IMG/VR virus record: IMGVR_UViG_3300000553_000006
Span: 1-64,000 of that record
Origin: a virus
Taxonomy: Duplodnaviria; Heunggongvirae; Uroviricota; Caudoviricetes
DNA: 64,000 nucleotides
Strand: one strand, 5' to 3'
Part shown: one piece after another, positions 6,145 through 57,746 of the stretch
Layout: each line of letters opens with the position of its first letter
Numbering within the stretch: the first letter of the stretch is position 1
Made by a program: the position numbers and the translations under genes
The notes under the pieces: model-generated
The model's database searches: none
The model's input: only the letters and a program-made list of their open reading frames with translations
Told to the model about the DNA's origin: nothing

Positions 6145-6145
6145 A

Positions 6146-6219
6146 TGGCGCTCATGACGGGACTCGAACCCGCCTTACCGGATCGACAGTCCGGTCCCTT
6201 CCCTGATGGGTACATGAGC
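6146..6219 (-). tRNA. tRNA-Asp (GUC)
   Basis: Manual fold: anticodon arm CCGGA-CTGTCGA-TCCGG, T-loop GGTTCGAGTCC, acceptor GCTCATG/CATGAGC, CCA; a minus-sense TATAAATA late box lies just upstream (6229..6236). Confidence 0.75.
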
Positions 6220-6331
6220 ATAGTAACTTATTTATACCACAAAAACAACTGCAATAGGGACCAGCGATCTTTTTCCGAGGTGCCATAGGGAATGTCGGAA
6301 AAGACTATTACTCCCATAAGGACGCTGGTTG

Positions 6332-6955: not shown

Positions 6956-6965
6956 TTATAATTCC
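6926..6965 (-). promoter_or_regulatory. leader hairpin enclosing the start codon of the GIY-YIG gene
   Basis: Arms GGAATTAT/ATAATTCC flank a conserved loop AAATGGGCATACTAAGACCTTTC; a minus-sense TATAAATG late-like box overlaps. Confidence 0.55.
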
Positions 6966-7059
6966 AGAGGCTTGTGTCAGAGCAACTGGTAACGCTCCAG
7001 TATAGCCAGCTTCCAAAGCCAACTGAGATCCTTGTCTTTCCTACTCTGATAACTCAAAA

Positions 7060-7146
7060 TGGAGGGTCCTGTGGGATTCGAACCCACGGTGTGCTTGCGC
7101 ATGCAGATTAAGAGTCTGCTCGTTTCGACCGCTTACCTAAAAACCC
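7060..7146 (-). tRNA. type II (long variable arm) tRNA, anticodon reads CUU as folded
   Basis: 87 nt. Acceptor GGGUUUU/AGGACCC with two G.U pairs. Ser-like D-loop AAGCGGTCGAA. Anticodon arm GCAGA-CTCTTAA-TCTGC. 15-nt variable arm. T-arm GTGGG-TTCGAAT-CCCAC. Encoded CCA. The anticodon assignment is not standard for a type II tRNA. Confidence 0.55.
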
Positions 7147-12779: not shown

Positions 12780-12850
12780 TCTTCAACCGTGGTTGGGCTC
12801 GAACCAACGACCTTCCTCTGCCTGAGGACGCTCTATCCGACTGAGCTACA
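12780..12850 (-). other. tRNA-like element (atypical; possible pseudo-tRNA)
   Basis: Canonical D-arm GCTC-AGTCGGATA-GAGC and T-loop GGTTCGAGCC, but no standard 7-nt anticodon loop or acceptor pairing could be folded. Confidence 0.35.
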
Positions 12851-12946
12851 CAAATTTACACCATTACACTTTCGTCTCTGTTTTGTCTAGAATTAACAGA
12901 GACTACAAACCTCATATTGTCATTCTAACTCAGGCGACCATTATTG

Positions 12947-26187: not shown

Positions 26188-26955
26188 TTACGCGACTTTA
26201 CGAATTGTCCAGAAATCAGAGGCTAGACCTGGGTGTGTAATGTAATCATAAGGCATGTGGAAATATCCAGACATACCCCAATCTTCACCCCAAGAGTTAC
26301 GAACAATGATACAGTTGTTATCGTCATCGTAACCAACAGCCATTACTGCGTGTCCACCGAGGAACTTCTCGTCTCTAGCTGGCATCTTTAGAATACCGGA
26401 GTCAGCCATCTCTTGAGATTCCATGTTGTCATAAACAGAGAATCCAAATACAAATGGATAACCTTCTACTAGACAAGCCTTCATATGATCAAGATCACCA
26501 TCAGGAATAGCAGAATACTCGAGAACAAGATCCTTCTTTGCATCAACAAAGCAGTTATCAGTTGGCTTTGTTGTTACTTTCGATTGATCAAACTTCCAAT
26601 CAGACTCTGGACAGATACCAAACTCAGCTGTTCCTTTGATTACATCACGAATTACAGCGCCACAGTCTTGATCTGTTGTCTGTGAATAGCTTCTACCATT
26701 CCAATAGATGAATAGACGAGAAGGAACAAAATCAACAAGTCCTTCTTTGCGACGCACAAACTCAACCATTGCTGCAATAGAATTACCAGTGCAGCTGCTT
26801 GTTTGATATTGATTGTAGATTACTGAATCGTGAGGACGAAGGTCAACTTTCTTTGGGAAAGCACCTGGTGCAGCTCCCATTGGCATAGTATAAACGTGGT
26901 CACGGAAGTCAGGAAGTTGAGGCTTCCAACCATATTGATACTGAGTGTCTGACAT
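26188..26955 (-). CDS. papain-like (C1 family) cysteine peptidase
   Basis: QYQTSSCTGNS catalytic-Cys context; GGHAVMAVGYDDD...IVRNSWGEDWG His/Asn block. Confidence 0.65.
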   Translation of the reverse strand: MSDTQYQYGWKPQLPDFRDHVYTMPMGAAPGAFPKKVDLRPHDSVIYNQYQTSSCTGNSIAAMVEFVRRKEGLVDFVPSRLFIYWNGRSYSQTTDQDCGAVIRDVIKGTAEFGICPESDWKFDQSKVTTKPTDNCFVDAKKDLVLEYSAIPDGDLDHMKACLVEGYPFVFGFSVYDNMESQEMADSGILKMPARDEKFLGGHAVMAVGYDDDNNCIIVRNSWGEDWGMSGYFHMPYDYITHPGLASDFWTIRKVA

Positions 26956-28815: not shown

Positions 28816-29448
28816 ATGTCAAGCCCAAATGCATATGTGTATAAAATAACGAATACGGTAACTAATGAATTTTATATCGGATACAGATACAAAAACCAAA
28901 GACAAAACGTTCTTCCAGAAAATGATTTGTTTGTTACATATTTCTCTTCATCAAAACGAGTTCTATCTGACATAGAGAAATATGGGAAGTCAAATTTTAT
29001 TTATGAGATAATTTTCCAAGACCAAAATTCTCTATTGTGTTGGGAAAAAGAACAGGAAACAATCAAAGAACTCTGGGGAAATTCTCTTTTACTTAACTCG
29101 AAATATAATGATGTCTCTAGTAAAACAGAACATTACCGAAGAGTTGGTATTGTATCAGAAGAAGCAAGAAAGAAAATGAGTGTTGCAGGAAGAGGGAAAA
29201 CAAAGTCTCTCGAGCATAGAAGAAAAATTGCCGAATCTAATAGAGGTAGAGTAAAATCTCTAGAAGAGAGACAAAAGATATCTAACTCAAGAATTGGGAA
29301 ACCAACAAATAAAGGTAAGTCTCCTCCAAAATTTTCCTGTCCTCACTGCAACAAAGTAGCATCTTGGGCAAATTTACAAAAGTGGCATAATGACAAATGT
29401 AAATTTTATGTCGTTACCTCTTCAATTTCCGAGAAACCTTCCTCGTAA
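28816..29448 (+). CDS. GIY-YIG homing endonuclease with NUMOD3 repeats
   Basis: YVYKITNTVTNEFYIGYRYKN; SLEHRRKIAESNRGRVKSLEERQKIS repeats. Confidence 0.75.
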   Translation: MSSPNAYVYKITNTVTNEFYIGYRYKNQRQNVLPENDLFVTYFSSSKRVLSDIEKYGKSNFIYEIIFQDQNSLLCWEKEQETIKELWGNSLLLNSKYNDVSSKTEHYRRVGIVSEEARKKMSVAGRGKTKSLEHRRKIAESNRGRVKSLEERQKISNSRIGKPTNKGKSPPKFSCPHCNKVASWANLQKWHNDKCKFYVVTSSISEKPSS

Positions 29449-32899: not shown

Positions 32900-33583
32900 T
32901 TACCTCTTGTTATAATATTCGCGAATAACATCCATTGCGCCATCTATATAATCATCTCGTTTCTTTATAAAAACTTGACCTGGCGCGGGTGAGTCTGAAG
33001 CCATTACGATTACTATCTGTGGACAACATATTCCAGTCCGTTCTTCCATCATGACGGAGTATATAGCTGTCTGATAAAAGTAGGATAGAATCCAATCAGC
33101 TCTCTTAGGTTTGTTTGCTGACTTGAAATCTAGAATAGAGTTTCTTCCAGACCAACGAACAACAGCGTCAACACGACCTCCAACCTTAAGATAATCAGAG
33201 GTCAGAGGTGTCTCTACACCATAAACAATCTCGATGTTCTCGTCTAGAATGTGTTTAATCTTACCGAAAAGATCCAGCGTTGTTGGCATTACACCACGAC
33301 GATACTCTTTATTCAGTAGATAGTTCTCGCAAACAGTGTGAAGAGCTGTACCTCTGTCGGCTGCTGCTTTGCTGATTCTCTTGGCTTCTTCCTCACCAAC
33401 TCTAGCTTTCCATTCATCAAGTCCAGTCTTATCCATCACACCCATAACTGTAGTAACAGATGGATACCTCGCCCCGTCCGGCGAGGTATAAAATCTTCCA
33501 TATGATAAAGTTTCAACCAATGGATCAGGCAAATCTACTAATTGATGTTCAAACATGTATTCTTCCAATATTCCAAGAACCAT
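32900..33583 (-). CDS. PD-(D/E)XK nuclease-family protein
   Basis: GRVDAVVRWSGRNSILDFKSANK (D-x13-D-F-K). Confidence 0.45.
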   Translation of the reverse strand: MVLGILEEYMFEHQLVDLPDPLVETLSYGRFYTSPDGARYPSVTTVMGVMDKTGLDEWKARVGEEEAKRISKAAADRGTALHTVCENYLLNKEYRRGVMPTTLDLFGKIKHILDENIEIVYGVETPLTSDYLKVGGRVDAVVRWSGRNSILDFKSANKPKRADWILSYFYQTAIYSVMMEERTGICCPQIVIVMASDSPAPGQVFIKKRDDYIDGAMDVIREYYNKR

Positions 33584-34238
33584 CAGCAGATTCTGTAAAT
33601 CTTAGATAGTTTCTTTTTCCATCATTATACCATTTTCTTCCAGTGAGATAAGAATAATCGATATTCTTTCTAGCATCAGAAAGTTTTTTGCAAGTTTCTA
33701 GAGAAGGTTTCTTACCTTTATGAGATAAACTATTTTTCTTTCTTTGATCCTCAGTTAGTTTTCTTCCTGTGTTTGCAACACTTATTTTTCTTTTATGTTC
33801 ATCAGAAAAAATTTTACCTTTATTTGCAGCATTACCTATGCTTGCTTTTGCTATTTTGTCTTTTGTTTCTTGAGATTGTTTAAATCCTGGAATTCTATAG
33901 AAATCTTTGGCTCCATTTGATTTATTGAGCCAAAGATTTGATTTAGCTGCATTAAGTTTTCTTAATACAGCGTTTTCCCAAAATAAACATTTTTCCTTTG
34001 ATGTAAATGTCTTTCTGATTTCTATCACATCAGGCTCACCATATTGGTGTCTAAATGCAGCAACAACCTTTGAAGAAGTGAAATACGTTACCCAAAGATC
34101 GCTTGGGTTCGCTGTTTTGTTAAATTGGGCGCCATAATACCACTTATTGTGATTGCGCCAACCTATAAGGTATGTGTATGGGACATAAATAGTCATAGCT
34201 GGTTCTCCTCGTAGAACTAGAGCCTGGGGGAAGTGCAA
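33549..34238 (-). CDS. GIY-YIG homing endonuclease (seg-like) with NUMOD3 repeats
   Basis: YVPYTYLIGWRNHNKWYYGAQ; SQETKDKIAKASIGN repeats. Confidence 0.65.
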   Translation of the reverse strand: MHFPQALVLRGEPAMTIYVPYTYLIGWRNHNKWYYGAQFNKTANPSDLWVTYFTSSKVVAAFRHQYGEPDVIEIRKTFTSKEKCLFWENAVLRKLNAAKSNLWLNKSNGAKDFYRIPGFKQSQETKDKIAKASIGNAANKGKIFSDEHKRKISVANTGRKLTEDQRKKNSLSHKGKKPSLETCKKLSDARKNIDYSYLTGRKWYNDGKRNYLRFTESADGSWNIGRIHV

Positions 34239-35335: not shown

Positions 35336-35626
35336 TTACCAAATACCTGTTTTGTTGAGTTCGATCAACTTATTGTCGATCAGACCCTTGATACATTCAT
35401 CACAAATATTGGTCTCATATTGAGAAGTTCTGTCATGCTTGTCAAAAATCCTCTTAATATGCAATGGCATACCAGTCGTCCAGGTCCAATATTGCATGTC
35501 AATGACGGTTGACCCATAATGACCAACAATACCATCTTTCAAGACACTGGCTGAACAGTCGCAGCCTTGATTGGTAGACTCGAAGATTGCTTCGTGTTCA
35601 CTACCACAAATGTCACAAATAACCAT
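35336..35626 (-). CDS. Cys-rich hypothetical protein
   Basis: CDIC...CDC...CDEC. Confidence 0.4.
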   Translation of the reverse strand: MVICDICGSEHEAIFESTNQGCDCSASVLKDGIVGHYGSTVIDMQYWTWTTGMPLHIKRIFDKHDRTSQYETNICDECIKGLIDNKLIELNKTGIW

Positions 35627-35892
35627 TAGAACCTGCTATGTTTGGTTGGATAGAAATAGCCATACCATTCTCGACGAATAGCCCAGCGACGATACCTCCA
35701 AGAACGATACACCTTACGGAATTTACGCTTGCGAGACCAGTAGAGACCATCTAGTTTCTTATAATTACCAAGAGAAAAATATCCTGAAGTCCAGTAATGT
35801 TTCGGGAACTTCAGTTTATAGTCGTGAAAACTCAGAAAGCCGTTAGACTTACTGCCGGCAGAAGTAAAATAGTAACGAGAAGTCTCTTTCAT
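35626..35892 (-). CDS. extremely basic aromatic-rich small protein
   Basis: 88 aa, WSRKRKFRKVYRSWRYRRWAIRREWYGYFY. Confidence 0.4.
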   Translation of the reverse strand: MKETSRYYFTSAGSKSNGFLSFHDYKLKFPKHYWTSGYFSLGNYKKLDGLYWSRKRKFRKVYRSWRYRRWAIRREWYGYFYPTKHSRF

Positions 35893-36257
35893 CAGTCCGC
35901 TTGTCTCGTCAAAAATGTCTTTCGAATACGAACAGGATTGAAGAAGTGTTCAACAACATTAACAGCAACGTCGATGTCATATTCTTTACAAGAGAAGATA
36001 TCAATATACCCTTCCTGAGTCCAATCGTTAAAATGGGCAATGATATTGCTTGTTTCAATTAATTGGATTACTGTCCACCCCTCTAAATGTCTTTCATTAT
36101 GTCCAAAATGGATAACTTGTGGCTCGCCAAAAGGAACCATTTCAATTTCTTCTACAAGAGCTTTTACCCATTCTTTCAATACATCTGGATTTGTAATCGC
36201 TTCTTTATCGCAACCACTACAATCCAAAATTAGGTGGTAACCCCAGTATGACATCAA
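35892..36257 (-). CDS. S-adenosylmethionine decarboxylase, SpeH-like pyruvoyl proenzyme
   Basis: GYHLILDCSGC...LIETSNIIAHFNDW...DIFSCK matches the class 1b AdoMetDC pattern, including an internal serine at the expected self-cleavage position. Confidence 0.6.
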   Translation of the reverse strand: MMSYWGYHLILDCSGCDKEAITNPDVLKEWVKALVEEIEMVPFGEPQVIHFGHNERHLEGWTVIQLIETSNIIAHFNDWTQEGYIDIFSCKEYDIDVAVNVVEHFFNPVRIRKTFLTRQAD

Positions 36258-36413
36258 TATTCCTCATCGTCTTCAAGTTCCATTAAAGCATCAATATCAC
36301 GAAGCTTCAGGGCGCGATTAATCTTCTTTTCTTTCCTATGATTACGAGTGTCGAATGACTCGTATTCCTCTTCGTCATCATAGTATGCACGAGAGTTCTT
36401 GTTCATGGAATTC

Positions 36414-36851
36414 TTACTTTTGCTCATTTTCCTTGTCCGTCAAAAGCCCTGGGAGAGTGGTTTCAATCATCTTACGAGTGATGTTCTTATAAGGGAACTT
36501 CTTGTCCTTACATGCGATGAGTAGTTCCGCATCTTCAGGTTCGATTGATTCAAGGATTTGGACGAAAATTGTTTCGCGACGTAGTTGTGGCATTTCCGGA
36601 CCACCCTTGAGGAAGATGTACATGCGACGCATCTCTTGATGCAGTCGACCATGTTGGTCAAGTTGTTCGCATGGCTTATATGGCGGTGCTCCAGGCGGTA
36701 ACTCGAACTGACAATTCTTATCAAAGGCGATTTGTAGCATCATCGGAACTGTTGCTACTTGTCTTGCTGCTTGTAGAAGAGCATTACTGCGCTCTTCAAC
36801 TGTTTTCTGTTCAGAGATTACTTTGAAAATCTCTGTCATAGATAGTGCCAT
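36414..36851 (-). CDS. hypothetical protein
   Basis: 145-aa ORF. Confidence 0.45.
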   Translation of the reverse strand: MALSMTEIFKVISEQKTVEERSNALLQAARQVATVPMMLQIAFDKNCQFELPPGAPPYKPCEQLDQHGRLHQEMRRMYIFLKGGPEMPQLRRETIFVQILESIEPEDAELLIACKDKKFPYKNITRKMIETTLPGLLTDKENEQK

Positions 36852-36971
36852 TAGAAACTCCTAACTTTGTAATACATTATACCGTCCTAAGACATTAAAG
36901 TCAACTAAATAAATGTGAGTCGCGGATGGCAGTCCCACTCACTCTAGTCCTCTCTTTCAAGGAACCAGCAC

Positions 36972-37439
36972 ATGATTATATATGATCCTATCGCAACCTT
37001 TCTTGGTGTAACACCATGTTACGTAGATTACGATAATCTACCAATAACTCCATCTAATCATACTCACAATCCTCTTTGGTTACGTCCGGGTGGATGGAAA
37101 CATGATGATGAAGCGAAGAAAAAGATGAGTAAAGCTAAGAAAGGTAAACCAGGACCAAAGAAATCTAAAGAAACAAAGCAAAAAATGGGTGAATCACATA
37201 GAGGTATACCAAGACCAGATGTTAGTCTTCTCCATAAAGGTAAAATCTTATCTGATGAGACAAAAGAAAAGATTAGAATAGCGAGAGCTAAACAAATTTC
37301 ACAACCACATAATGAAGAAACTAAGTTAAAAATATCTTTAGCAAAGACAGGCAAAAAGCGCAAACCTTTTACCGAAGAGCACAAAAGAAAGATGAGTGAG
37401 TCAGCTAGAATTCGCCGACTGAAGTCATCAAATTCTTAA
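36972..37439 (+). CDS. NUMOD3-repeat DNA-binding protein (homing-endonuclease-derived; no clear catalytic domain)
   Basis: Repeated KxKxSxAxxGK blocks; shares the conserved HE leader. Confidence 0.55.
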   Translation: MIIYDPIATFLGVTPCYVDYDNLPITPSNHTHNPLWLRPGGWKHDDEAKKKMSKAKKGKPGPKKSKETKQKMGESHRGIPRPDVSLLHKGKILSDETKEKIRIARAKQISQPHNEETKLKISLAKTGKKRKPFTEEHKRKMSESARIRRLKSSNS

Positions 37440-44142: not shown

Positions 44143-44216
44143 TGGCATGGGTACTAAGAGTCGAACTCAGGCTTACAGTTTTGGAGACTGTCGTGCTACC
44201 GTAACACTTTACCCAC
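44143..44216 (-). tRNA. tRNA-Trp (CCA)
   Basis: Anticodon arm ACAGT-CTCCAAA-ACTGT, T-loop GAGTTCGACTC, encoded CCA. Confidence 0.7.
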
Positions 44217-44526
44217 ACATGTATTTCTTATTTTTACCAGCGTATGTCTCAGTTTGAGAATGGCAGTTAGGACAAAGAAAGGTTAAATTATCTAATCTAT
44301 TGTCGTTATTTACACCATTCTTGTGTTCTAACTGAAGAGAAATAGATTTCCCATTCCACTCATCAGAAAGTCCGCAATCTGAACAAACATAATCTATCAG
44401 TTTTTGCTTAATTACTCTTTCTTTTAACCTATGTCTAGGATAATTTGAATTTTCAACAAAAACAGTATCATTAGAAAATTTTCTACTAGCTGCAGATAAT
44501 AGCAACCCTTGTATATTTCTTGGCAT
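44209..44526 (-). CDS. HNH endonuclease
   Basis: CSDCGLSDEW...HKNGVNNDNRLDNLTFLCPNCH; minus-sense TATAAATA late box at about 44550. Confidence 0.7.
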   Translation of the reverse strand: MPRNIQGLLLSAASRKFSNDTVFVENSNYPRHRLKERVIKQKLIDYVCSDCGLSDEWNGKSISLQLEHKNGVNNDNRLDNLTFLCPNCHSQTETYAGKNKKYMCG

Positions 44527-44583
44527 AAGCTATCTCCTCTTTAGAGATATTTATATACCGTCGGTTCTAAGAACCGAAGAAAA

Positions 44584-44658
44584 TGGTGGAGGATAAGGGA
44601 ATCGAACCCTTGCTTCATGCTTGCAAAGCACGAGTGCTACCATTATCACCAATCCCCC
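44584..44658 (-). tRNA. tRNA-Ala (UGC)
   Basis: Anticodon arm CGTGC-TTTGCAA-GCATG; G3.U70 identity pair present; CCA. Confidence 0.7.
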
Positions 44659-44664
44659 ATTATA

Positions 44665-44740
44665 TGGTGCCGCAACGAGGAATCGAACCCCGGACATCCT
44701 GCTTACAAGGCAGGCGCTCTTCCAACTGAGCTATTACGGC
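44665..44740 (-). tRNA. tRNA-Thr (UGU)
   Basis: Anticodon arm CCTGC-CTTGTAA-GCAGG; D-arm GCTCAGTTGGAAGAGC; CCA. Confidence 0.75.
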
Positions 44741-44787
44741 ATAATTACTCTTTATTTATAAATATCTAAGCAGCTAAGGAGAAGAAT

Positions 44788-45147
44788 ATGATTGAACATA
44801 TCGAAAAAATCAACACAAAGATCGCACTTACGGTAACAGATGTCGTAGGTACAATGTGGTGCGCGTATATTTTCGCAGTTCTAGCAGTACTCAGTCTTCC
44901 TACAGCTATTGCTGGTGGTATCGCAACTCTAATTTCTTGGGTCGCTCAAACTTTCCTTCAACTCGTACTTCTATCAGTCATCATGGTTGGACAACGTATT
45001 CAAAGCGAGAGAACTGAGAAGCGAGACGAAGAAGATCACGTAACCATCATGAACGAATTCGCAGAAATTAAACAAATGCATAACGAAATAAAAGAAATCT
45101 TGGCTCTTGAAAAGCAAGATGCTGCTCAAGAGAAGCGTGGAGTCTAG
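44788..45147 (+). CDS. membrane protein
   Basis: 119 aa, two TM helices; TATAAATA late box at 44757..44764 and an AAGGAGA RBS. Confidence 0.55.
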   Translation: MIEHIEKINTKIALTVTDVVGTMWCAYIFAVLAVLSLPTAIAGGIATLISWVAQTFLQLVLLSVIMVGQRIQSERTEKRDEEDHVTIMNEFAEIKQMHNEIKEILALEKQDAAQEKRGV

Positions 45148-45154
45148 AGAGTAT

Positions 45155-45230
45155 TGGAGTGCACGACAGGATTCGAACCTGCATTAAACTGAGTTGCAAT
45201 CAGTTGACTAACCATTCATACCACGTGCAC
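45155..45230 (-). tRNA. tRNA-Cys (GCA)
   Basis: Anticodon arm ACTGA-TTGCAAC-TCAGT; acceptor GTGCACG/CGTGCAC; CCA. Confidence 0.7.
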
Positions 45231-45810
45231 GTAATTTTCTATATCTTAATCCTTTACTCCATCCCGTCATATTTAGGAATTCTTCTTCAGTTACCATTTT
45301 AGATTTCTGCAAATCATCATTAGAAACCCAAAATTTACCTTTACTGTGATGATGTTCTAACAGTTTTTTAGAAAGTGCTGGACCATTTTTCCTATTAATT
45401 TCAGTCATCTTTTCACAAAACTTGTCACGATATGACTGATCAATTTTGATTCTATTCCCGTGAATTAAATGTTGATCAACTTTATGATTTAATCCAAATT
45501 TATTCACATAATAGAAATTTGCAGGTCCACCCAATTTTACATTATACACATCATTTCTATCTAAAAATTCTTCCGTTACTAATTCTATTTCTCTATCATA
45601 CATATTTTCTTCAGTATCAAACCACTCTATAATTTCTTTAGAAAAATTCTCAATTCCATACTTTTTTATAGCAGATTTAATACCTTTTCCAGATCCCATA
45701 TATCCATCATCTATATTAGAAGTTTTATGGACCCCAACATATATTTTGCCGTTCAGTCTATTTCTAATTTGATATAGATAGTAATACATAAGAATCTCCA
45801 TTCTCTTCAT
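45208..45810 (-). CDS. GIY-YIG homing endonuclease
   Basis: YYYLYQIRNRLNGKIYVGVHKT...DGYMGSG; its stop overlaps the 5' end of tRNA-Cys; late box at about 45822. Confidence 0.75.
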   Translation of the reverse strand: MKRMEILMYYYLYQIRNRLNGKIYVGVHKTSNIDDGYMGSGKGIKSAIKKYGIENFSKEIIEWFDTEENMYDREIELVTEEFLDRNDVYNVKLGGPANFYYVNKFGLNHKVDQHLIHGNRIKIDQSYRDKFCEKMTEINRKNGPALSKKLLEHHHSKGKFWVSNDDLQKSKMVTEEEFLNMTGWSKGLRYRKLRARGMNG

Positions 45811-45848
45811 TACTATTTATATAAACGCAGACCGTTACCTAGAAGATA

Positions 45849-45923
45849 TGGCACCCACATCCAGAATCGAACTGGAATCGACCGTTTAGAAGACGGTAGC
45901 TCTGTCCGTTGAGCTATGCGGGC
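45849..45923 (-). tRNA. tRNA-Arg (UCU)
   Basis: Anticodon arm ACCGT-CTTCTAA-ACGGT; CCA. Confidence 0.7.
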
Positions 45924-45929
45924 TCAAAA

Positions 45930-46004
45930 TGGTACTGGAGCCCAGAATTGAACTGGAGACTCAGGGGACACAATCCTGCATTTTACCAATTAAACTACTC
46001 CAGC
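45930..46004 (-). tRNA. tRNA-His (GUG), probable
   Basis: Anticodon loop TTGTGTC in a CAGGA/CCCTG stem with one mismatch; CCA. Confidence 0.55.
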
Positions 46005-46202
46005 TCACTCTTGATCAATAACCAGATAGCAAAATCTATGAACAATATCGAAAGACTCGATTACCTTAATCGCGCGCTCATCGTTTGCTTTTGCTTTCAC
46101 ATGTAGATCAAGAATATAATCTCGTAGACGAAAAAAATTGTAAGCATCTTGGAGAAGATCACCAAGATCCAGAACTTGTTCAACAGTCACATTCTGTTTC
46201 AT
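46005..46202 (-). CDS. hypothetical protein
   Basis: 65-aa ORF. Confidence 0.35.
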   Translation of the reverse strand: MKQNVTVEQVLDLGDLLQDAYNFFRLRDYILDLHVKAKANDERAIKVIESFDIVHRFCYLVIDQE

Positions 46203-46211
46203 AATATATCC

Positions 46212-46826
46212 TTAAAGAGTCTTTCGACCTTTATTATAACCTAGTGCCAAATAATAATCAAGCTGTTCTTTTTTAATTTTAAGAATACGTTGTCCATTAT
46301 TTATCCAACAAGTACCAAATTGAGAATTTTTAGATCCTTTTTGGTGTTCTTTTTCGTGCAAAGTATTTTTTCTTTTTAATTTGGCATCTTCAGTATTGGC
46401 AAATAATGAAGCAATCTTTATATTATTCTTTCTAGCTCTTAGTTTATTTTCACTTTCAATTTTAAGATTTAATTTATTCAATTTTCCTGAAATTTTTCCA
46501 CCCAATCTATATGCTTCAATAGGAACCAATCCATTTGCATTGATATACCCAAATCCACCTTTACCACCAGGACATAGATTATAGGTATCCTCTCGTGTAC
46601 AAAACTCTTCGGTAACCAATTCTTTCTCTTTAGCATTCATTTCTTCTTCCGAATCAAATACAAAGAGAATTTCTTTAGTAAACTTATCTAATCCATATTT
46701 CTTTTGGGCTCTACGTAATGATTGACCAGAACCCATATATCCATCATCCAAATCTTTTGTTTGATGTTTACCAATATAGATTTTGTTGTTTACAGAACAA
46801 GTAATTTTGTAGATAGTATAAAACAT
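46212..46826 (-). CDS. GIY-YIG homing endonuclease, paralog of 6332..6955
   Basis: MFYTIYKITCSVNNKIYIGKHQTKDLDDGYMGSG. Confidence 0.8.
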   Translation of the reverse strand: MFYTIYKITCSVNNKIYIGKHQTKDLDDGYMGSGQSLRRAQKKYGLDKFTKEILFVFDSEEEMNAKEKELVTEEFCTREDTYNLCPGGKGGFGYINANGLVPIEAYRLGGKISGKLNKLNLKIESENKLRARKNNIKIASLFANTEDAKLKRKNTLHEKEHQKGSKNSQFGTCWINNGQRILKIKKEQLDYYLALGYNKGRKTL

Positions 46827-46833
46827 ATTAGTG

Positions 46834-46883
46834 TCCCAGGAAATATAGAAAGGTCTTAGTATGCCTATTTATATTTCCTGGGA
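46834..46883 (-). promoter_or_regulatory. leader hairpin (14-bp perfect stem) upstream of the GIY-YIG gene
   Basis: Arms TCCCAGGAAATATA/TATATTTCCTGGGA around the same conserved loop as at 6926..6965; contains a minus-sense TATAAATA. Confidence 0.55.
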
Positions 46884-46889
46884 CTGAAG

Positions 46890-46979
46890 TAGTCCTGCTA
46901 GGACTCGAACCTAGATCGTTCACCCGTCCGGTGATCATGCCTTATAAGGACACCGCTCTGCCAATTGAGCTACAAGACT
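46890..46979 (-). tRNA. type II tRNA with 22-nt variable arm, anticodon reads UAU as folded; no encoded CCA
   Basis: Acceptor AGTCTTG/CAGGACT, D-arm GCTC-AATTGGCA-GAGC, anticodon arm GTGTC-CTTATAA-GGCAT (2 G.U), T-arm CTAGG-TTCGAGT-CCTAG. Confidence 0.5.
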
Positions 46980-46987
46980 ACATAATT

Positions 46988-47072
46988 TGGTGCGAATGAG
47001 AGGACTCGAACCTCCACCCCTTTCGGGACTGGTTTCTAAGACCAGCGCGTCTACCAATTCCGCCACACTCGC
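46988..47072 (-). tRNA. tRNA-Leu (UAG)
   Basis: Anticodon arm CTGGT-CTTAGAA-ACCAG, long variable arm, CCA; 85 nt. Confidence 0.75.
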
Positions 47073-47186
47073 ATTATTTTCCGTCTAGTAAAAGACAAAG
47101 AAAGCCTACTATCCAAACCCAAAGTGGCGCATTATAGTGCCAACATACCAGAAAGCCAAAAATAGCAAGCATTTCTCATCCTCAAA

Positions 47187-47262
47187 TGGTGCCGACGGCA
47201 GGGATCGCACCCGCATCTGCTGGGTTTCAACCAGCCGCTAAGACTACATCAGCTACGACGGC
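47187..47262 (-). tRNA. tRNA-Phe (GAA)
   Basis: Anticodon arm GCTGG-TTGAAAC-CCAGC; CCA. Confidence 0.65.
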
Positions 47263-47269
47263 GTAATAT

Positions 47270-47346
47270 TGGAAGGGGATACGGGACTCGAACCCGCATT
47301 AGTGGATTGAAAGTCCACTGTCCTAGTCCAATTAGACGAATCCCCC
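47270..47346 (-). tRNA. tRNA-Glu (UUC)
   Basis: Anticodon arm GTGGA-CTTTCAA-TCCAC; T-loop GGTTCGAGTCC; CCA. Confidence 0.7.
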
Positions 47347-47669: not shown

Positions 47670-48527
47670 TTACACTCGAATCCTCTTTTTAATTTCCTCG
47701 AAAGACTCATCCTTAACAAGTTTACCATCAAGATAGACAGTTTCAAGACAATCGTTGGCATCGTGATTGCTTTCAAGAGTGAACCAATTGTGTCCATCTT
47801 GACGCAGAACCAGTCGACCCTTCTTGCTCTTCTTGCCAGGATCAGTAATCGGATCCTTGGCGATAGCAAGATCCTTACCATTCACACGAATGTTGCTCGC
47901 CTTGAACGCAAACTTATTCGTGTCTCGATTGATATCGACTTGCATCAGACCACCGCCTGAACCAGTCATAATCGAATCAGCAGAGATATGCATGTCTAGA
48001 GCAATCTGGAACGGAACAGCCACAGTGTCTTCGTTGATACCGTCACCCCACAGAACCTTGACGTTGTTCAGAACTTTGTATCCCTTGTTATTCCGAGTGA
48101 AGCCAAAGCCCTTCTCAAGAATAGCCAGGACTTGAGGAAGAACAACCTCAATATCGCCGCTGTCAGGACGAACGACGAGAGTGATATTCTTCTCGACGAT
48201 CTTATCCTTCAGAGACACCCACTTACGAGCCGCATCGTAGATGTTCCAAGTGTCCGAAACAACAGACAGAATAGAACCAGGTTCAGCGACATCAACCAGA
48301 CGTTCGAACGAAGCAAGTTCGTTCTCTTGACCGTAGCTACACATGATGCTGTGTTCAGTAGCAGCCACGGAGTAACCCATGATCTTACCACCATACAGCT
48401 TACGAACCCAGTCGATAGCAGACATACTGTCCGAACCGGCGAAGTTCAGTAGATGCGCAGCACCACCGATCTGATTGCTCTCGAAAGAAGAGCAGCGATG
48501 GCTCCGATAGAAGCAATCTTTCTCATA
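47670..48527 (-). pseudogene. nadV: nicotinamide phosphoribosyltransferase (NadV/Nampt) C-terminal portion, N-terminal ~180 aa missing
   Basis: GGAAHLLNFAGSD...GYSVAATEHS...RPDSGD...KGRLVLRQDGHNW aligns with Nampt residues ~185-480 from memory; an in-frame TAA at 48528..48530 separates it from an unrelated low-complexity ORF. Confidence 0.55.
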
Positions 48528-52889: not shown

Positions 52890-55175
52890 CTAGATAGTAC
52901 AGCTGTCACAATTTTCTTGATCTAATTCTCCTAGTTTTACAGCAAAAGAAGATTCAGTAATTTCTCCAGCGCCATCTGAAGTATTGAAGTAATATAAGGT
53001 CTTACCACCAAGTTTATAGTGTAGAAGAATATGTCCTAGCATTTCTGAGACTGGGATCTTCTCTTCAGGATAGAAGATAGGATTGTAAGAGGTATTTACA
53101 GAAATGGCTTGGTCCATATACTTTTGAATCACAGCCATAATCTTGAGATATCCCTCAGGACTGCGTTGATCCCATAGCAATTCGTATTTATTCTTCATAC
53201 GACGGAAGTCAGGGACAACTTGCTTGAGAACTCCATCCTTTGATACTTTAACAGAAACAAATGCTCTTGGTGGTTCAACACCATTTGTAGCATTAATGAT
53301 CTGTGATGAAGTCTCAGATGGCATACAAGCCATTAGTGTGGCGTTACGAATACCATGAAGCTTGGCATCAGCCTTGAGGCTTTCCCAGTCCATATGATAA
53401 ACTGGAGTAACAATAGTGTCAAGCTCTTTCTTATACGTATCAATCGGGAAAATGCCGTGAGCATACTTTACAGCTTCACCGCCCTTACATGGACCAAACT
53501 CTTTCGCAAGTTGTACAGAAGCTTTGATCAAATAGTAAGACCAAGCTTCACACATCTCATCAATCTTAGCCAGATTTGGATTGGTGTATGTCATATCATT
53601 CTTTGCCATCCAGTAAGCAAGATTATTCAATCCTACACCAAGAGGACGGTACTTCTCGGTAGAGTTACGTGCAGCCAAAACAGGATAGTTTTGGTAGCTA
53701 AGAAGAGCGTCAAGCCCGCGTACTGCAAGCTCACAAGGCTTCTCAAAATCCTTAGATGATCTGATCTTACCTAGATTAATCGCTGTTAGAGTACAAAGAG
53801 CGATCTCTCCATTAGGATCATTAACATCATTAAGAGGAACAGTTGGTAGTGTAATCTCTGTACATAGATTGCTCATTCTGATTGGAGCAAGATCTGTAAT
53901 GAATGAACCGTGATCGTTACAGTGATCAACATTCATAAGATATACTCGTCCAGTGTCCTTCCGTTCTTGTATGAACGACGTGAAAAGGTCAATGGCTTTA
54001 ACTGTCCGCTTTCTAATCTTAGTTGAACGCTCGTACTTCTCGTATAGAGTGCGGAAAGTGTCTGTGTTTGAGAAGAACGCTTCGTAGAGGTCAGGTACAT
54101 CAGATGGAGAAAACAGAGTGATGTTCCCGCCAGTAATAAGTCTTTCATACATGACTTTATTGAATTGGACGCCGTAGTCAAGATGTCTTGCACGATTATC
54201 CTCCGTACCTTTGTTGTTCTTCAGAACAAGCATGTCCTCGATTTCTAAGTGCCAGACCGGATAATAGAGCGTTGCAGCACCGCCTCGAACACCCCCTTGG
54301 GAGCACGATTTGACAGCACTTTGAAAATGTTTATAAAAAGGAATAACTCCAGTATGAGAAGCATCACCATTGCGAATAGGGGAGCCAAGAGCACGTATGC
54401 GCCCAGCTCCAATACCAATACCAGCCTTTTGAGAAACATACTTAACGATCGCCGATGCCGTCGCGTTAATACTGTCAAGGGAATCCTCCGTTTCAATTAA
54501 TACGCATGATGAGAATTGACGTTGAGGAGTTCTAACGCCAGCCATCACAGGTGTGGGTAATGAGAAATCAAAGGTAGAGATCGCGTCGTAGTATTCCTTG
54601 ACGTACTTAAGGCGAGTTTCCTTTGGATAGTTTGAGAACAACGCAGCTGAGATAAGAATGAACGCCATTTGTGGCGTTTCAAAGATCTCTCCAGTTGTTC
54701 TATTCTTTACAAGATACTTACCACGGAACTGCTCCATTGCAGCATAAGTGAGAAGATAATCTCGGTCGTGATTAATGTAACCATTAATTGAGTTCCATTC
54801 TTGTTCGTTGTATGCAGCAAGTAGATCCTTATCATAGAAACCGAACTTGACAACATTCTTTACATGGTCAAGAAGGTGTATAGGCTCGTATTGCCCATAC
54901 ACTTCCTTGCGAAGATGGTAGTTAATCAGGCGACCACCAACGTATTGGTAGTTCGGAGTCTCTTCCGAGATAAGATCAGCTGCAGCCTTGATCAAAGTCT
55001 CTTGAATATCAGAGGTCTTGATCTTATCGTAAAACTGAATTTGAGACTTCAGTTCAATTTCTGAAGCTGATACATTATTGATTCCTTGACAAGCAAGAAT
55101 ACACACACCGTGGAACTTGTTTAGATCGAGAGGTTCCTTGTCTCCGTTACGTTTTGTTACTACAATTCCTGACAT
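52890..55175 (-). CDS. nrdA: ribonucleotide reductase class Ia alpha subunit
   Basis: 761 aa, N-terminal ATP-cone, C-terminal CDSC redox pair. Confidence 0.85.
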   Translation of the reverse strand: MSGIVVTKRNGDKEPLDLNKFHGVCILACQGINNVSASEIELKSQIQFYDKIKTSDIQETLIKAAADLISEETPNYQYVGGRLINYHLRKEVYGQYEPIHLLDHVKNVVKFGFYDKDLLAAYNEQEWNSINGYINHDRDYLLTYAAMEQFRGKYLVKNRTTGEIFETPQMAFILISAALFSNYPKETRLKYVKEYYDAISTFDFSLPTPVMAGVRTPQRQFSSCVLIETEDSLDSINATASAIVKYVSQKAGIGIGAGRIRALGSPIRNGDASHTGVIPFYKHFQSAVKSCSQGGVRGGAATLYYPVWHLEIEDMLVLKNNKGTEDNRARHLDYGVQFNKVMYERLITGGNITLFSPSDVPDLYEAFFSNTDTFRTLYEKYERSTKIRKRTVKAIDLFTSFIQERKDTGRVYLMNVDHCNDHGSFITDLAPIRMSNLCTEITLPTVPLNDVNDPNGEIALCTLTAINLGKIRSSKDFEKPCELAVRGLDALLSYQNYPVLAARNSTEKYRPLGVGLNNLAYWMAKNDMTYTNPNLAKIDEMCEAWSYYLIKASVQLAKEFGPCKGGEAVKYAHGIFPIDTYKKELDTIVTPVYHMDWESLKADAKLHGIRNATLMACMPSETSSQIINATNGVEPPRAFVSVKVSKDGVLKQVVPDFRRMKNKYELLWDQRSPEGYLKIMAVIQKYMDQAISVNTSYNPIFYPEEKIPVSEMLGHILLHYKLGGKTLYYFNTSDGAGEITESSFAVKLGELDQENCDSCTI

Positions 55176-55747
55176 ACTTTTCCTACTCTACAATTGTCAA
55201 AATGCCATCTTTTCATACCACTACCATATCCAGATTTACCACATTTATTACATGTATGTTTTTGTTGAGAATGGTGTGTGCCAGAATCTAGTTGTTTCTT
55301 TTGCGCTTTTCTTTGTGTATCACCACCAATAAAGTGATGAGTTCCGTTTTCTATTCTTTTCTGTGTAGTCTTTCTAGAAATTTCGCCACCAATAAAGTGG
55401 TGTGTTCCAGCATCAACTCTTTTCTTAGCAGATATTTTAGCGACTTCACCACCAAGAAAATTATGTGTACCTTCTTCAACTCGTTTTCTAGAATTTTTTC
55501 TAGCTATCTGAGATATTATTTCTCCAGACATATTCATTCTAATTAATACTGCTTGTGCAGCTGCCCAGTCTTCTTGGTCATAATGAATTTTATAGTGGTC
55601 ATCAATAGATAATGCAATCAAGTTGCTAATATCGTTATTTTGATTGTTCCCATCCTTGTGATGAATATCAAATGTTCTACCGTATTCATCACAAGGAATA
55701 GGTCCATATACACTTTCGTATAATCTTCTGTAATCAGTCATAAGCAA
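55160..55747 (-). CDS. HNH homing endonuclease
   Basis: TFDIHHKDGNNQNNDISNLIALSIDDHYKIH; late box at about 55768. Confidence 0.7.
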   Translation of the reverse strand: MLMTDYRRLYESVYGPIPCDEYGRTFDIHHKDGNNQNNDISNLIALSIDDHYKIHYDQEDWAAAQAVLIRMNMSGEIISQIARKNSRKRVEEGTHNFLGGEVAKISAKKRVDAGTHHFIGGEISRKTTQKRIENGTHHFIGGDTQRKAQKKQLDSGTHHSQQKHTCNKCGKSGYGSGMKRWHFDNCRVGKVCQEL

Positions 55748-55802: not shown

Positions 55803-56498
55803 TTATTCCTTAGCTAGACTAGCCTTAACTGCGCGAGTATCTACAGCCTTACCAGATACGGTGTAATCTGCAGAAGCAGTAGCATAGAAGTTCATGGTTG
55901 CATCCATGTTACGTAGAGAGGTGTTGATCACCTTACCGGCAGATAGACCGTAGTTTTGAGCAACAGTATCAGCGTTAAACTCAGCACCAAGGAATAGAAC
56001 TTCCCATCCACGAGCCTGACAAGTAGCAATACGATCACGAATTGATGCCAGATTGTATGTCTTGCTTGAGTTTTCTTCACCATCAGTCATGATGATAATT
56101 ACAGTCTTTTCGTTGTTATTCTTGTCAGCAAGATTAAGCAGCTTCGCAGTTGAGTCATAAAGTGGAGTTCCGCCGCGTGGTGAAGTTTCGTTGATACCAA
56201 CGTCCTTAAACTTCTTGATACTTACTTTATCACGAATAACATCAAAGCTGTTTGGATCAACTACTTCAGCGTTAAACGCTCTTGCCATTTGAGCACCACC
56301 AAGACGAACTTGTCCACCCCAATTCGATGGTCCGTTTGAGTCAAAGGTTGCAAGAGTAATCTCAGCGTCAGTTCCAGCAGTTCTTAGTCCATGTACGTAG
56401 GTATTGATAGCGCCAATTGCACCTTCCCATCGAGAACCAGACATAGAGCCTGAGCGATCAAGTAGAATATATGCAGATAGCTTATTTGATTTTGCCAT
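55803..56498 (-). CDS. von Willebrand factor A (vWA) domain protein
   Basis: MIDAS motif LLDRSGSMSG plus downstream TDGEE. Confidence 0.6.
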   Translation of the reverse strand: MAKSNKLSAYILLDRSGSMSGSRWEGAIGAINTYVHGLRTAGTDAEITLATFDSNGPSNWGGQVRLGGAQMARAFNAEVVDPNSFDVIRDKVSIKKFKDVGINETSPRGGTPLYDSTAKLLNLADKNNNEKTVIIIMTDGEENSSKTYNLASIRDRIATCQARGWEVLFLGAEFNADTVAQNYGLSAGKVINTSLRNMDATMNFYATASADYTVSGKAVDTRAVKASLAKE

Positions 56499-57170: not shown

Positions 57171-57746
57171 TTATTCCTTTCTATATACCATACCAGCTAC
57201 CCAGTCTGAGCCGGGTGATACTTTAGATCGTTTTCTTTTACCTTCTGGATTTACCCACCAAATAGTATTTTGTACAGCTTTACTTCCATGACTATTGGAA
57301 GTAGTATCTAAAAATCCAGCACACCTTTCTTTAGCAACTAATCCAGCACGTTGAGCATTTTTTCTTGCTAATATAGGATCTGCATTTATAGCGTGTATCC
57401 CAACTTTATTCTTTACAGTTTTATATGCTGCTTGAGTTGATATTTCAGATCTTCTTTCTTTAGACATTTTTTGGAAATTGTGATTTCCAGAATCATAAAT
57501 TTTCTTTTGAGATAAAGAAGCAGCGTTTTTAATTTCTTCTTTACTTGCTCCATTTATTCTAAGTAATATAGCTTGGACTGCACCCCAATCATTCTGCTTT
57601 TTGTGTATTTCTAAATGCTCTTGAATAGTTACTAACTGAAGATTAGTTGGATCGTCATTAAAATGATTACCGTCTATATGGTGAATTTCATAACCCTCTG
57701 GAATTTTTAGATTATTATATTCTTCCCAAATTTTTCTATAGTGCAT
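57171..57746 (-). CDS. HNH homing endonuclease
   Basis: EIHHIDGNHFNDDPTNLQLVTIQEHLEIH; late box at 57782..57789. Confidence 0.7.
   Translation of the reverse strand: MHYRKIWEEYNNLKIPEGYEIHHIDGNHFNDDPTNLQLVTIQEHLEIHKKQNDWGAVQAILLRINGASKEEIKNAASLSQKKIYDSGNHNFQKMSKERRSEISTQAAYKTVKNKVGIHAINADPILARKNAQRAGLVAKERCAGFLDTTSNSHGSKAVQNTIWWVNPEGKRKRSKVSPGSDWVAGMVYRKE

What the first reader, a model, noticed from the sequence alone, without database searches (positions are those of the whole stretch)
35892..36257. Pyruvoyl-type S-adenosylmethionine decarboxylase (SpeH-like) in the phage
The 121-aa ORF carries the class 1b AdoMetDC pattern (GYHLILDCSGC ... IETSNIIAHF ... DIFSCK) with a serine at the expected autoproteolysis site. 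A phage copy could feed polyamine synthesis for DNA packaging. It could also drain SAM to blunt SAM-dependent host restriction, BREX or DISARM, functionally echoing the T3 SAM lyase by a different chemistry.
Basis: partly seen in the sequence, partly recalled or inferred. Interest (0 to 1): 0.55.

Follow-up and report, generated by a model that had tools for sequence, protein, structure and literature searches.

The report
Phage pyruvoyl ornithine decarboxylase (SpeDC-type)
The small phage gene really does encode a self-cleaving pyruvoyl decarboxylase of the SAM-decarboxylase fold, but its sequence signature is that of the already described branch that decarboxylates ornithine to make putrescine, so it is an ordinary new member of a known phage polyamine-gene family and not a SAM-draining enzyme.

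Summary
The ORF is real. It spans 35892-36254 on the minus strand and is 120 aa from the ATG. It matches Pfam AdoMet_dc (E=4e-18), and its AlphaFold model (pLDDT 96) superposes on T. maritima AdoMetDC (TM 0.86). The processing and catalytic Ser/His/Cys triad is present as S69, H74 and C89.

It is not a canonical SpeH/SpeD. It scores below the TIGR03330 cut-off (39.8 against 75.65 bits). It lacks the E-S-H cleavage context and the H-T-W-P-E proline. It carries what I read as the four residues (Gln64, Thr68, Phe75, Tyr83) that Li et al. (JBC 2023) call diagnostic for SpeDC, the AdoMetDC-derived pyruvoyl L-ornithine decarboxylases first characterised from freshwater phages (PNAS 2023).

It scores 168 bits against an HMM of bacterial SpeDC-type proteins and 23 bits against a bona fide SpeD HMM. 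It is 39-42% identical to the genes of Anaerolinea thermophila and Ca. Electrothrix aarhusensis, two species in which this enzyme was validated as an ornithine decarboxylase.

The gene sits in a conserved early-gene block of a T4-like phage and is under strong purifying selection. No other polyamine enzyme was found in the window.

The most likely function is ornithine to putrescine. The SAM-depletion and anti-restriction idea is not supported. The main caveat is that one clade member, Sinorhizobium phage phiN3, is a bona fide AdoMetDC. This is a new member of a known kind, of low to moderate interest.

The parts
35892..36254 (-). SpeDC-type pyruvoyl decarboxylase proenzyme gene: 120 aa, ATG at 36254, stop TGA at 35894..35892
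   Evidence: ORF and sequence. Pfam AdoMet_dc E=4e-18. Identical 120-aa gene called on the metagenome contigs read. AF2 pLDDT 96.2. Fold match to 1vr7 at TM 0.86.
36051..36254 (-). Predicted beta subunit (residues 1-68), released by serinolysis between Thr68 and Ser69
   Evidence: Inferred from the alignment to T. maritima S63 and to D. phosphitoxidans SpeDC Ser229, whose S229A mutant lost ODC activity. Cleavage was not tested here.
35895..36050 (-). Predicted alpha subunit (residues 69-120), with Ser69 (codon AGC at 36050..36048) converted to the N-terminal pyruvoyl group
   Evidence: Ser69 is invariant in 130/130 family members and in all aligned references.
35988..36065 (-). Central signature Q64-L-I-E-T68-S69-N-I-I-A-H74-F75-...-Y83-I-D-I-F-S-C89. 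It holds the processing and catalytic Ser/His/Cys (His codon 36035..36033, Cys codon 35990..35988) and the four putative SpeDC-diagnostic residues Gln64, Thr68, Phe75 and Tyr83.
   Evidence: Per-column conservation. Comparison with SpeDC-type and bona fide SpeD sequences. The diagnostic residues are named in PMC10407285.
36876..36904 (-). Sigma-70-like promoter candidate (TTGACT-17-TATAAT, 11/12) in the 120-bp gap upstream of the gene run that contains the decarboxylase
   Evidence: Consensus scan only; function not shown.
36414..36851 (-). DUF6433 / phrog_461 gene, first gene of the putative transcription unit and a conserved neighbour
36254..36427 (-). 57-aa ORF of unknown function. Its stop overlaps the decarboxylase start by 1 nt (TGATG).
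35626..35892 (-). 88-aa ORF of unknown function. Its ATG overlaps the decarboxylase stop by 1 nt (TGATG), suggesting translational coupling.

Best explanation
The gene encodes a SpeDC-type enzyme: a class 1b AdoMetDC-fold proenzyme that has been neofunctionalised into a pyruvoyl-dependent L-ornithine decarboxylase.

Inferred mechanism: the 120-aa proenzyme cleaves itself between Thr68 and Ser69. [quoted passage not shown] His74 and Cys89 assist processing and protonation, as their equivalents do in T. maritima AdoMetDC. The pyruvoyl group forms a Schiff base with the alpha-amino group of L-ornithine, CO2 is lost, and putrescine is released.

Inferred biology: the gene is expressed from an early-type gene run of a T4-like phage and raises putrescine in the infected cell. 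Host enzymes can convert putrescine to spermidine or homospermidine, which support phage translation and replication. The enzyme does not consume SAM.

Shown here: the fold, the catalytic triad, the signature residues, clade affinity, conservation and synteny. Inferred, not shown: self-cleavage, substrate and physiological role.
For: (1) Fold and triad. Pfam AdoMet_dc. AF2 model pLDDT 96.2, matching T. maritima and A. aeolicus AdoMetDC at TM 0.83-0.86. S69, H74 and C89 align to S63, H68 and C83.

(2) Signature. Li et al. state that SpeDC ODCs are discriminated from AdoMetDC and SpeDA by four conserved residues, Gln, Thr, Phe and Tyr, in the central region. The ORF has Q64, T68, F75 and Y83. 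These are invariant or nearly so in 130 phage-type homologues, and are present in the experimentally validated SpeDC domains of D. phosphitoxidans and an Omnitrophica bacterium and in the A. thermophila and Ca. E. aarhusensis genes.

(3) Profile scores. 168.1 bits against an HMM of 79 bacterial or archaeal SpeDC-type proteins, against 23.4 bits for a bona fide SpeD HMM. TIGR03330 gives 39.8 bits against a cut-off of 75.65.

(4) Tree. Bona fide SpeDs separate from all others in 100% of 500 NJ bootstraps. The ORF falls inside the QxIETS clade with the SpeDC-type sequences.

(5) Bacterial relatives sit in putrescine-consuming contexts. A. thermophila has SpeD1-SpeDC-SpeE. E. aarhusensis has SpeDC followed by a PLP-decarboxylase-family gene and a saccharopine-dehydrogenase-family gene, the families expected for carboxyspermidine decarboxylase and dehydrogenase.

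(6) Some related phage contigs carry a SpeDC-type gene immediately followed by a canonical SESH..HTWPE SpeD. This implies that the two types have different functions.

(7) Published biochemistry. Five freshwater phage homologues of 117-122 aa had ODC activity and did not complement an E. coli speD deletion.

(8) Purifying selection and conserved synteny RNase H - DUF6433 - small ORF - SpeDC - ... - PhoH in ~150-kb contigs.
Against: No enzyme assay exists for this protein or, as far as I could establish, for a close relative. I could not retrieve the sequences of the characterised phage ODCs (LBP, UCP01-04), so the link to them is by signature and clade, not by measured identity.

Sinorhizobium phage phiN3 gp163 is the best hit among cultured phages (32.5% identity). 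It lies in the same clade (99.8 bits to the SpeDC-type HMM) yet restored spermidine synthesis as a bona fide AdoMetDC. It differs at E67Q, T68D and N70H. One characterised phage enzyme (UCP01) also used L-arginine.

The positions of the four diagnostic residues were inferred from the text and from alignments, because Fig. 8 of the paper is not held. Bootstrap support for the exact QxIETS clade including phiN3 is only 62% on a 120-column NJ tree. The SpeDC-type HMM was built from loci selected by motif patterns derived from the query's own alignment, so its motif columns are partly circular.
Confidence: 0.78

Rival explanations
1. It is a bona fide S-adenosylmethionine decarboxylase. It would make dcSAM for spermidine synthesis by a host spermidine synthase, and possibly lower the SAM pool.
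For: Pfam, PHROG and most source annotations name the family AdoMetDC. The processing and catalytic triad is intact. phiN3 gp163, from the same clade, is a functional AdoMetDC.
Against: It is below the TIGR03330 equivalog cut-off and scores 23 against 168 bits. The Pro described as completely conserved in bona fide AdoMetDCs is absent. The Glu preceding the cleavage Ser is Thr here; this Glu is the equivalent of human Glu67, which is listed among the SAM-binding residues. phiN3 has an acidic Asp at that position plus a canonical S-H, which the ORF lacks. By my inference from the H-x3-E spacing, the human Glu247 equivalent is Trp78, a variable position in the family. No spermidine synthase is in the window or within about 10 kb of 80 related viral loci. 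Related phages carry a separate canonical SpeD next to the SpeDC-type gene.
Confidence: 0.08
2. It is a pyruvoyl-dependent L-arginine decarboxylase (SpeDA-like), or a dual ornithine/arginine decarboxylase, producing agmatine that the host converts to putrescine.
For: AdoMetDC homologues became ADCs several times, and pelagiphage HTVC201P, near the SpeDC clade, is an ADC. UCP01, a freshwater myovirus enzyme, uses both substrates.
Against: Pelagiphage-type homologues in the alignment have H-S-W and lack the Tyr (Eistla gp34, MedDCM S35C6), whereas the ORF has H-F and Y83 like the ODCs. Identity to them is only 26-28%. Four of the five characterised phage proteins of this type had no or only trace ADC activity. 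No agmatinase, AIH or NCPAH is in the window.
Confidence: 0.1
3. It is a member of the fold with another or no catalytic role. It could be a decarboxylase of a different amino acid such as lysine or 2,4-diaminobutyrate, or a non-enzymatic regulatory subunit like the trypanosomatid prozyme.
For: Substrate specificity in this fold has shifted repeatedly. No direct assay exists for this lineage.
Against: Ser, His and Cys and the whole SpeDC signature are invariant under strong purifying selection, which argues for retained catalysis. The characterised members showed no lysine activity.
Confidence: 0.04

Closest known systems
SpeDC: AdoMetDC-derived pyruvoyl-dependent L-ornithine decarboxylases (Li et al., PNAS 2023, phage enzymes LBP and UCP01-04; JBC 2023, bacterial and archaeal enzymes)
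   Same: Same size class (117-122 aa in phages; 120 aa here). Same fold. Same Ser/His/Cys. Same Q..ETS..HF..Y.D.FSC signature. Found in an uncultivated T4-like or myovirus-type phage. 39-42% identical to the genes of two species with validated SpeDC and 33-35% to the validated SpeDC domains.
   Different: Not biochemically tested. Identity to the characterised phage proteins is unknown because their sequences could not be retrieved. The nearest database relatives (up to 81%) are all unannotated metagenomic proteins.
Class 1b S-adenosylmethionine decarboxylase SpeH/SpeD (T. maritima TM0655, PDB 1tlu/1vr7; B. subtilis SpeD; TIGR03330)
   Same: Same fold (TM 0.86, rmsd 2.0 A over 119 columns). 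Same autoprocessing Ser and the His and Cys.
   Different: Only about 20% identity. Thr instead of Glu before the Ser, Asn instead of His after it, and HFNDW instead of HTWPE. It has a 4-6 residue insertion before the cleavage strand. It is below the equivalog cut-off.
Sinorhizobium phage phiN3/phiM12 gp163 (a bona fide AdoMetDC placed in the ODC clade)
   Same: Best hit among cultured phages (32.5%). Shares Q64, H-F, Y83 and FSCK. Also from a T4-like superfamily phage.
   Different: phiN3 has VLQDSH where the ORF and all SpeDC-type sequences have LIETS(N/S/A/L). It has an 18-aa C-terminal extension and a documented AdoMetDC activity.
Pelagiphage HTVC201P-type SpeDA (pyruvoyl arginine decarboxylase)
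   Same: A phage-encoded, neofunctionalised SpeD homologue of about 122 aa with Q..(E/D)TS.
   Different: H-S-W instead of H-F, no Tyr83, YTC instead of FSC, 26-28% identity, and found in podoviruses next to RNR genes.

Membership tests
AdoMet_dc superfamily (Pfam PF02675, class 1b AdoMetDC fold) | Profile match above the curated gathering score | tested here: met
   66.2 bits against a cut-off of 25, E=4e-18, covering 7-117 of 120 residues.
AdoMet_dc superfamily (Pfam PF02675, class 1b AdoMetDC fold) | Alpha/beta sandwich fold of prokaryotic AdoMetDC | tested here: met
   AF2 pLDDT 96.2. Foldseek hits 1vr7, 1tmi, 1tlu and 2iii at E about 1e-9 and TM 0.83-0.86.
AdoMet_dc superfamily (Pfam PF02675, class 1b AdoMetDC fold) | Processing and catalytic Ser, His and Cys (T. 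maritima S63, H68, C83) | tested here: met
   S69, H74 and C89 align. They are invariant or nearly so in 130 homologues.
Bona fide AdoMetDC (SpeD/SpeH, TIGR03330 equivalog) | Score at or above the NCBIfam equivalog cut-off | tested here: not met
   39.8 bits against 75.65.
Bona fide AdoMetDC (SpeD/SpeH, TIGR03330 equivalog) | Completely conserved Pro of the H-T-W-P-E motif (PMC10407285) | tested here: not met
   The ORF has H74-F-N-D-W. There is no Pro at that position in the ORF or its family.
Bona fide AdoMetDC (SpeD/SpeH, TIGR03330 equivalog) | Glu immediately before the cleavage Ser (E-S-H; human Glu67 is a SAM-binding residue, PMC3686867) | tested here: not met
   The ORF has T68-S69-N70.
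Bona fide AdoMetDC (SpeD/SpeH, TIGR03330 equivalog) | Partner spermidine synthase (SpeE) encoded nearby | tested here: inconclusive
   None is in the 64-kb window or within about 10 kb of 80 related viral loci. A host SpeE could serve, and the rest of the phage genome is unseen.
Bona fide AdoMetDC (SpeD/SpeH, TIGR03330 equivalog) | Decarboxylation of S-adenosylmethionine | not testable with these tools
   Requires an enzyme assay or delta-speD complementation.
SpeDC (pyruvoyl-dependent L-ornithine decarboxylase) | Four diagnostic residues Gln, Thr, Phe and Tyr in the central region (PMC10407285, Fig. 8) | tested here: met
   Q64, T68, F75 and Y83 are present, as in the validated SpeDC domains and in the genes of species with validated SpeDC. 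The positions were inferred from text and alignments because the figure itself is not held.
SpeDC (pyruvoyl-dependent L-ornithine decarboxylase) | Phylogenetic placement in the single SpeDC clade | tested here: met
   An NJ tree places it among the QxIETS sequences. Bona fide SpeDs split off in 100% of bootstraps and the QxIETS clade has 62% support. It scores 168 bits to the SpeDC-type HMM. The clade also contains the AdoMetDC phiN3.
SpeDC (pyruvoyl-dependent L-ornithine decarboxylase) | Self-cleavage at Thr|Ser, and ODC activity without AdoMetDC activity | not testable with these tools
   Shown for relatives only.
SpeDA (pyruvoyl-dependent L-arginine decarboxylase) | AdoMetDC-like central region without the Pro and without the SpeDC Phe and Tyr | tested here: not met
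   The ORF carries F75 and Y83. Pelagiphage-type sequences have Ser and Val at those positions.

The most novel reading that the evidence does not exclude
Like phiN3 gp163, this freshwater T4-like lineage of SpeDC-type proteins might retain or have regained activity on S-adenosylmethionine, or be bifunctional.
Probability: 0.06. Interest if true: 0.55.

Novelty: new member of a known kind. Interest (0 to 1): 0.25.

Why it matters
It corrects a likely mis-annotation. Pfam, PHROGs and most source annotations call this protein an S-adenosylmethionine decarboxylase. The signature instead points to a pyruvoyl ornithine decarboxylase, so the predicted product changes from dcSAM to putrescine and the SAM-depletion idea falls away. 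It adds one more lineage of roughly 150-kb T4-like uncultivated phages to the known set of phages that carry this small, PLP-independent polyamine gene. Relatives are very common, on at least 586 IMG/VR contigs. It does not open a new question beyond those already posed by Li et al. in 2023.

Tried and rejected
- Megablast of 12 kb around the gene against 50,697 phage records found nothing. The phage has no sequenced close relative in that collection.
- The PDB sequence search put designed 'Cake' repeat proteins on top. These are summed weak repeat matches to residues 21-57 and were rejected as spurious. The fold search gave the real answer.
- I tried to identify the characterised phage ODCs (ATV46410, QMP83838, CAB5221556, CAB4131572, CAB4162964) among the homologues through a cluster look-up. 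No accession numbers were returned, and the papers' supplements hold no sequences for them.
- I looked for a host clue by asking whether the bacterial loci that carry relatives also carry other genes of this window. None did.
- I looked for partner polyamine genes (SpeE, agmatinase, CASDC, CASDH, GNAT acetyltransferase, HSS) in the window, using Pfam on ORFs of 70 aa or more and tblastn with SpeE, SpeB, CASDC and CASDH queries. None was found.
- I considered a recent horizontal insertion. The ORF GC of 37% against 42% for the window is unremarkable, and synteny is conserved in relatives, so I rejected this.

Full report
**Observation**

The ATG one codon downstream (36254) gives a 120-aa protein, MSYWGYHLILDC.... 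Exactly this product is called on the metagenome contigs read. It is also the N-terminus shared by the family.

Both gene junctions are 1-nt TGATG overlaps: the 57-aa ORF 36254-36427 upstream and the 88-aa ORF 35626-35892 downstream. The gene is therefore embedded in a tightly packed same-strand run.

The protein matches Pfam AdoMet_dc (E=4e-18, 66 bits against a cut-off of 25) and PHROG 3125. An AlphaFold2 model built on 66 homologues has mean pLDDT 96.2. Its best structural matches are T. maritima and Aquifex AdoMetDC (TM 0.83-0.86, rmsd about 2 A, about 20% identity), followed by the eukaryotic AdoMetDCs. Ser69, His74 and Cys89 align with T. maritima Ser63 (pyruvoyl precursor), His68 and Cys83.

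**What it is**

The same searches show that it is not a canonical SpeH/SpeD.

- The NCBIfam equivalog model for AdoMetDC (TIGR03330) gives 39.8 bits against a cut-off of 75.65.
- In alignments, bona fide enzymes share (V/I)x-E-S-H-x-x-I-H-(T/S/A)-W-P-E...Y-A-A-x-D-x-F-T-C-G. These enzymes are T. maritima, the SpeD1 of Anaerolinea thermophila, speH_2 of Microcystis phage MaAM05, and the N-terminal SpeD domains of the Desulfotignum and Omnitrophica fusion proteins.
- The ORF instead reads Q64-L-I-E-T-S69-N-I-I-A-H74-F-N-D-W...Y83-I-D-I-F-S-C89-K-E-Y-D.

Two papers from the Michael laboratory explain this pattern. In PNAS 2023 (PMC9992855), five SpeD homologues of 117-122 aa from freshwater uncultured phages were tested: a Lake Baikal myovirus, and UCP01-04. 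They failed to complement an E. coli speD deletion and were pyruvoyl-dependent L-ornithine decarboxylases. Pelagiphage homologues were arginine decarboxylases.

In JBC 2023 (PMC10407285), the ornithine decarboxylases (SpeDC) form a single clade across bacteria, archaea and phages. They are "straightforwardly" discriminated by four conserved residues: Gln, Thr, Phe and Tyr. A Pro is completely conserved only in bona fide AdoMetDCs.

The figure with the logos is not held. However, the supplement's alignment of the experimentally validated SpeDC domains of D. phosphitoxidans and an Omnitrophica bacterium reads ...TQLIETSLISGHFAN...VYLDVFSCNFYD. Numbering from that alignment puts the mutated processing serine S229 exactly at the Ser of QLIETS. 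The four residues, in order along the sequence, are therefore Q64, T68, F75 and Y83 of the ORF.

All four are invariant or nearly so in 130 homologues of 50-100% identity, together with S69, H74, D85, F87, S88, C89 and R117.

**Independent sequence support**

A scan of one genome per GTDB species found at least 587 genomes with relatives. The best are at 53% identity, in Verrucomicrobia and Chlamydiae chromosomes.

The list includes two species whose SpeDC was assayed by Li et al.

- **Ca. Electrothrix aarhusensis MCF (L067).** The gene precedes a PLP-decarboxylase-family gene and a saccharopine-dehydrogenase-family gene. These are the families expected for carboxyspermidine decarboxylase and dehydrogenase.
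- **Anaerolinea thermophila (L083).** The gene is a 140-aa ORF lying between a canonical SpeD (108 bits to Pfam AdoMet_dc) and SpeE, exactly the cluster described in the paper.

These are contexts in which a putrescine-forming enzyme makes sense. The ORF is 39-42% identical to these two, 33-35% to the two validated domains, and 12-23% to bona fide SpeDs.

The ORF was not used to train either of two profiles I built. Against an HMM of 79 bacterial or archaeal SpeDC-type proteins it scores 168 bits. Against an HMM of five bona fide SpeDs it scores 23 bits.

In an NJ tree, the bona fide SpeDs separate from everything else in 100% of 500 bootstraps. The ORF sits within the QxIETS clade.

**Why SAM is unlikely to be the substrate**

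In human AdoMetDC the SAM-positioning residues are Phe7, Leu65, Glu67, Phe223 and Glu247 (PMC3686867). Glu67 is the residue before the pyruvoyl Ser. It is Glu62 in T. maritima and Thr68 here. By the H-x3-E spacing (my inference), Glu247 corresponds to the Glu of HTWPE. That position is Trp78 in the ORF and is variable in its family.

Some related viral contigs (L111, L109, L126) carry a SpeDC-type gene followed directly by a canonical SESH...HTWPE SpeD. This is hard to reconcile with both genes doing the same job.

**Caveats**

- The best hit among cultured phages, Sinorhizobium phage phiN3 gp163 (32.5%), belongs to the same lineage (99.8 against 10.1 bits) but restored spermidine synthesis as a true AdoMetDC. 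The PNAS tree places it as the sole exception in the ODC clade. Its core reads VLQDSHSSAHF. Thr68 is replaced by an acidic Asp and Asn70 by the canonical His. The ORF has the standard SpeDC residues, so I weight this exception lightly.
- One phage enzyme (UCP01) also used arginine.
- Support for the exact clade is moderate (62%) on 120 columns.
- The sequences of the five characterised phage ODCs could not be retrieved.
- The two fusion-protein domain sequences were reconstructed from an OCR'd figure, with three letters restored to fit the printed numbering. The first three residues and the C-terminus of the T. maritima sequence came from memory, while residues 4-103 are shown.
- The 79 loci used for the SpeDC-type HMM were selected by motif patterns derived from the query's own alignment. 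That score is therefore partly circular for the motif columns.

**Context**

The window is part of a T4-like phage genome. The gene calls below are my own and lie almost entirely on the minus strand:

- RnlA-like and Rnl2-like RNA ligases, DNA ligase, RNase H, NrdA/NrdB and ThyX.
- dCMP deaminase, PhoH, and a PD-(D/E)XK exonuclease.
- Glycosyl- and methyltransferases.
- 14 tRNAs.
- About eight GIY-YIG or HNH homing endonucleases.

There is no megablast match to any deposited phage.

The block RNase H - DUF6433 - small ORF - SpeDC - small ORF(s) - PhoH - ... - PD-(D/E)XK nuclease is conserved in contigs of about 148 kb, where the homologue is 76% identical. Relatives occur on at least 586 IMG/VR contigs.

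A near-consensus sigma-70-type promoter (TTGACT-17-TATAAT) lies in the gap upstream of the DUF6433 gene. This suggests early expression but is a pattern match only.

Non-synonymous divergence from relatives is 0.16-0.24 while synonymous sites are saturated. This shows purifying selection.

No SpeE, agmatinase, CASDC/CASDH, HSS-like or GNAT gene was found in the window or next to 80 related viral loci. Any downstream conversion of putrescine would therefore rely on the host.

**Verdict**

The SAM-drain and anti-restriction speculation is therefore unsupported.

The best explanation, at a confidence of about 0.78, is a SpeDC-type pyruvoyl L-ornithine decarboxylase that supplies putrescine during infection. 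This is a new member of a family already described and assayed in phages, bacteria and archaea. Its interest is low to moderate, mainly as a correction of annotation.

Noticed in passing
L111 9992-10757 (IMGVR_UViG_3300034062_002239); also L109 and L126: Some related viral contigs carry a SpeDC-type gene (QLIETSNICAHF..YLDVFSCKQFD) immediately followed by a canonical SpeD ([24 protein letters not shown]). This would be a two-gene putrescine plus dcSAM module in a phage. The PNAS 2023 paper reported only one phage with more than one polyamine enzyme.
   Followed up: partly
window 6070-7146, 12784-12855, 44143-47346: There are 14 tRNA genes, all on the minus strand, in two main clusters. In the second cluster (44143-47346) the tRNAs are interleaved with GIY-YIG homing endonuclease genes (45208-45810, 46212-46826).
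   Followed up: no
window 6332-6955, 28816-29448 (+), 33549-34196, 36972-37439 (+), 45208-45810, 46212-46826, 55160-55741, 57171-57746: The density of homing-endonuclease-like genes is unusually high (SegE/GIY-YIG/NUMOD3 and HNH_3). One on the plus strand (36972-37439) overlaps the 3' end of the RNase H gene. Two HNH genes flank the nrdA - VWA - thyX block.
   Followed up: no
window 26188-26955, 47670-48425, 55803-56498: The window holds a papain-family cysteine peptidase (Peptidase_C1), a 251-aa NAPRTase-family protein and a VWA-domain protein. The small ORFs also hit ferritin-like, DnaJ, glutaredoxin, cREC_REC and WYL_2 domains.
   Followed up: no
window 36876-36904 (minus strand): A near-consensus sigma-70-type promoter (TTGACT-17-TATAAT, 11/12) lies in the intergenic gap upstream of the DUF6433 - 57-aa ORF - SpeDC - 88-aa - 96-aa gene run. 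The genes immediately flanking the decarboxylase are joined to it by 1-nt TGATG overlaps.
   Followed up: partly
L003 992-3357 (Microcystis phage MaAM05, MW495066.1): This cultured phage has a speH_2 - speH_1 - speE - speB cluster. speH_2 is canonical (SESH..HTWPE). speH_1 reads AESH..FHSF without the Pro and sits near an agmatinase, so it may be a SpeDA arginine decarboxylase mis-annotated as AdoMetDC.
   Followed up: no
L011, L013, L018 (Verrucomicrobia and Chlamydiae chromosomes): The closest cellular relatives of the phage gene (49-53% identity) are in Verrucomicrobia and Chlamydiae MAG chromosomes. There the gene is not next to other polyamine genes. Its neighbours are an M32 carboxypeptidase, LptF/G, Obg and PPDK.
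   Followed up: partly
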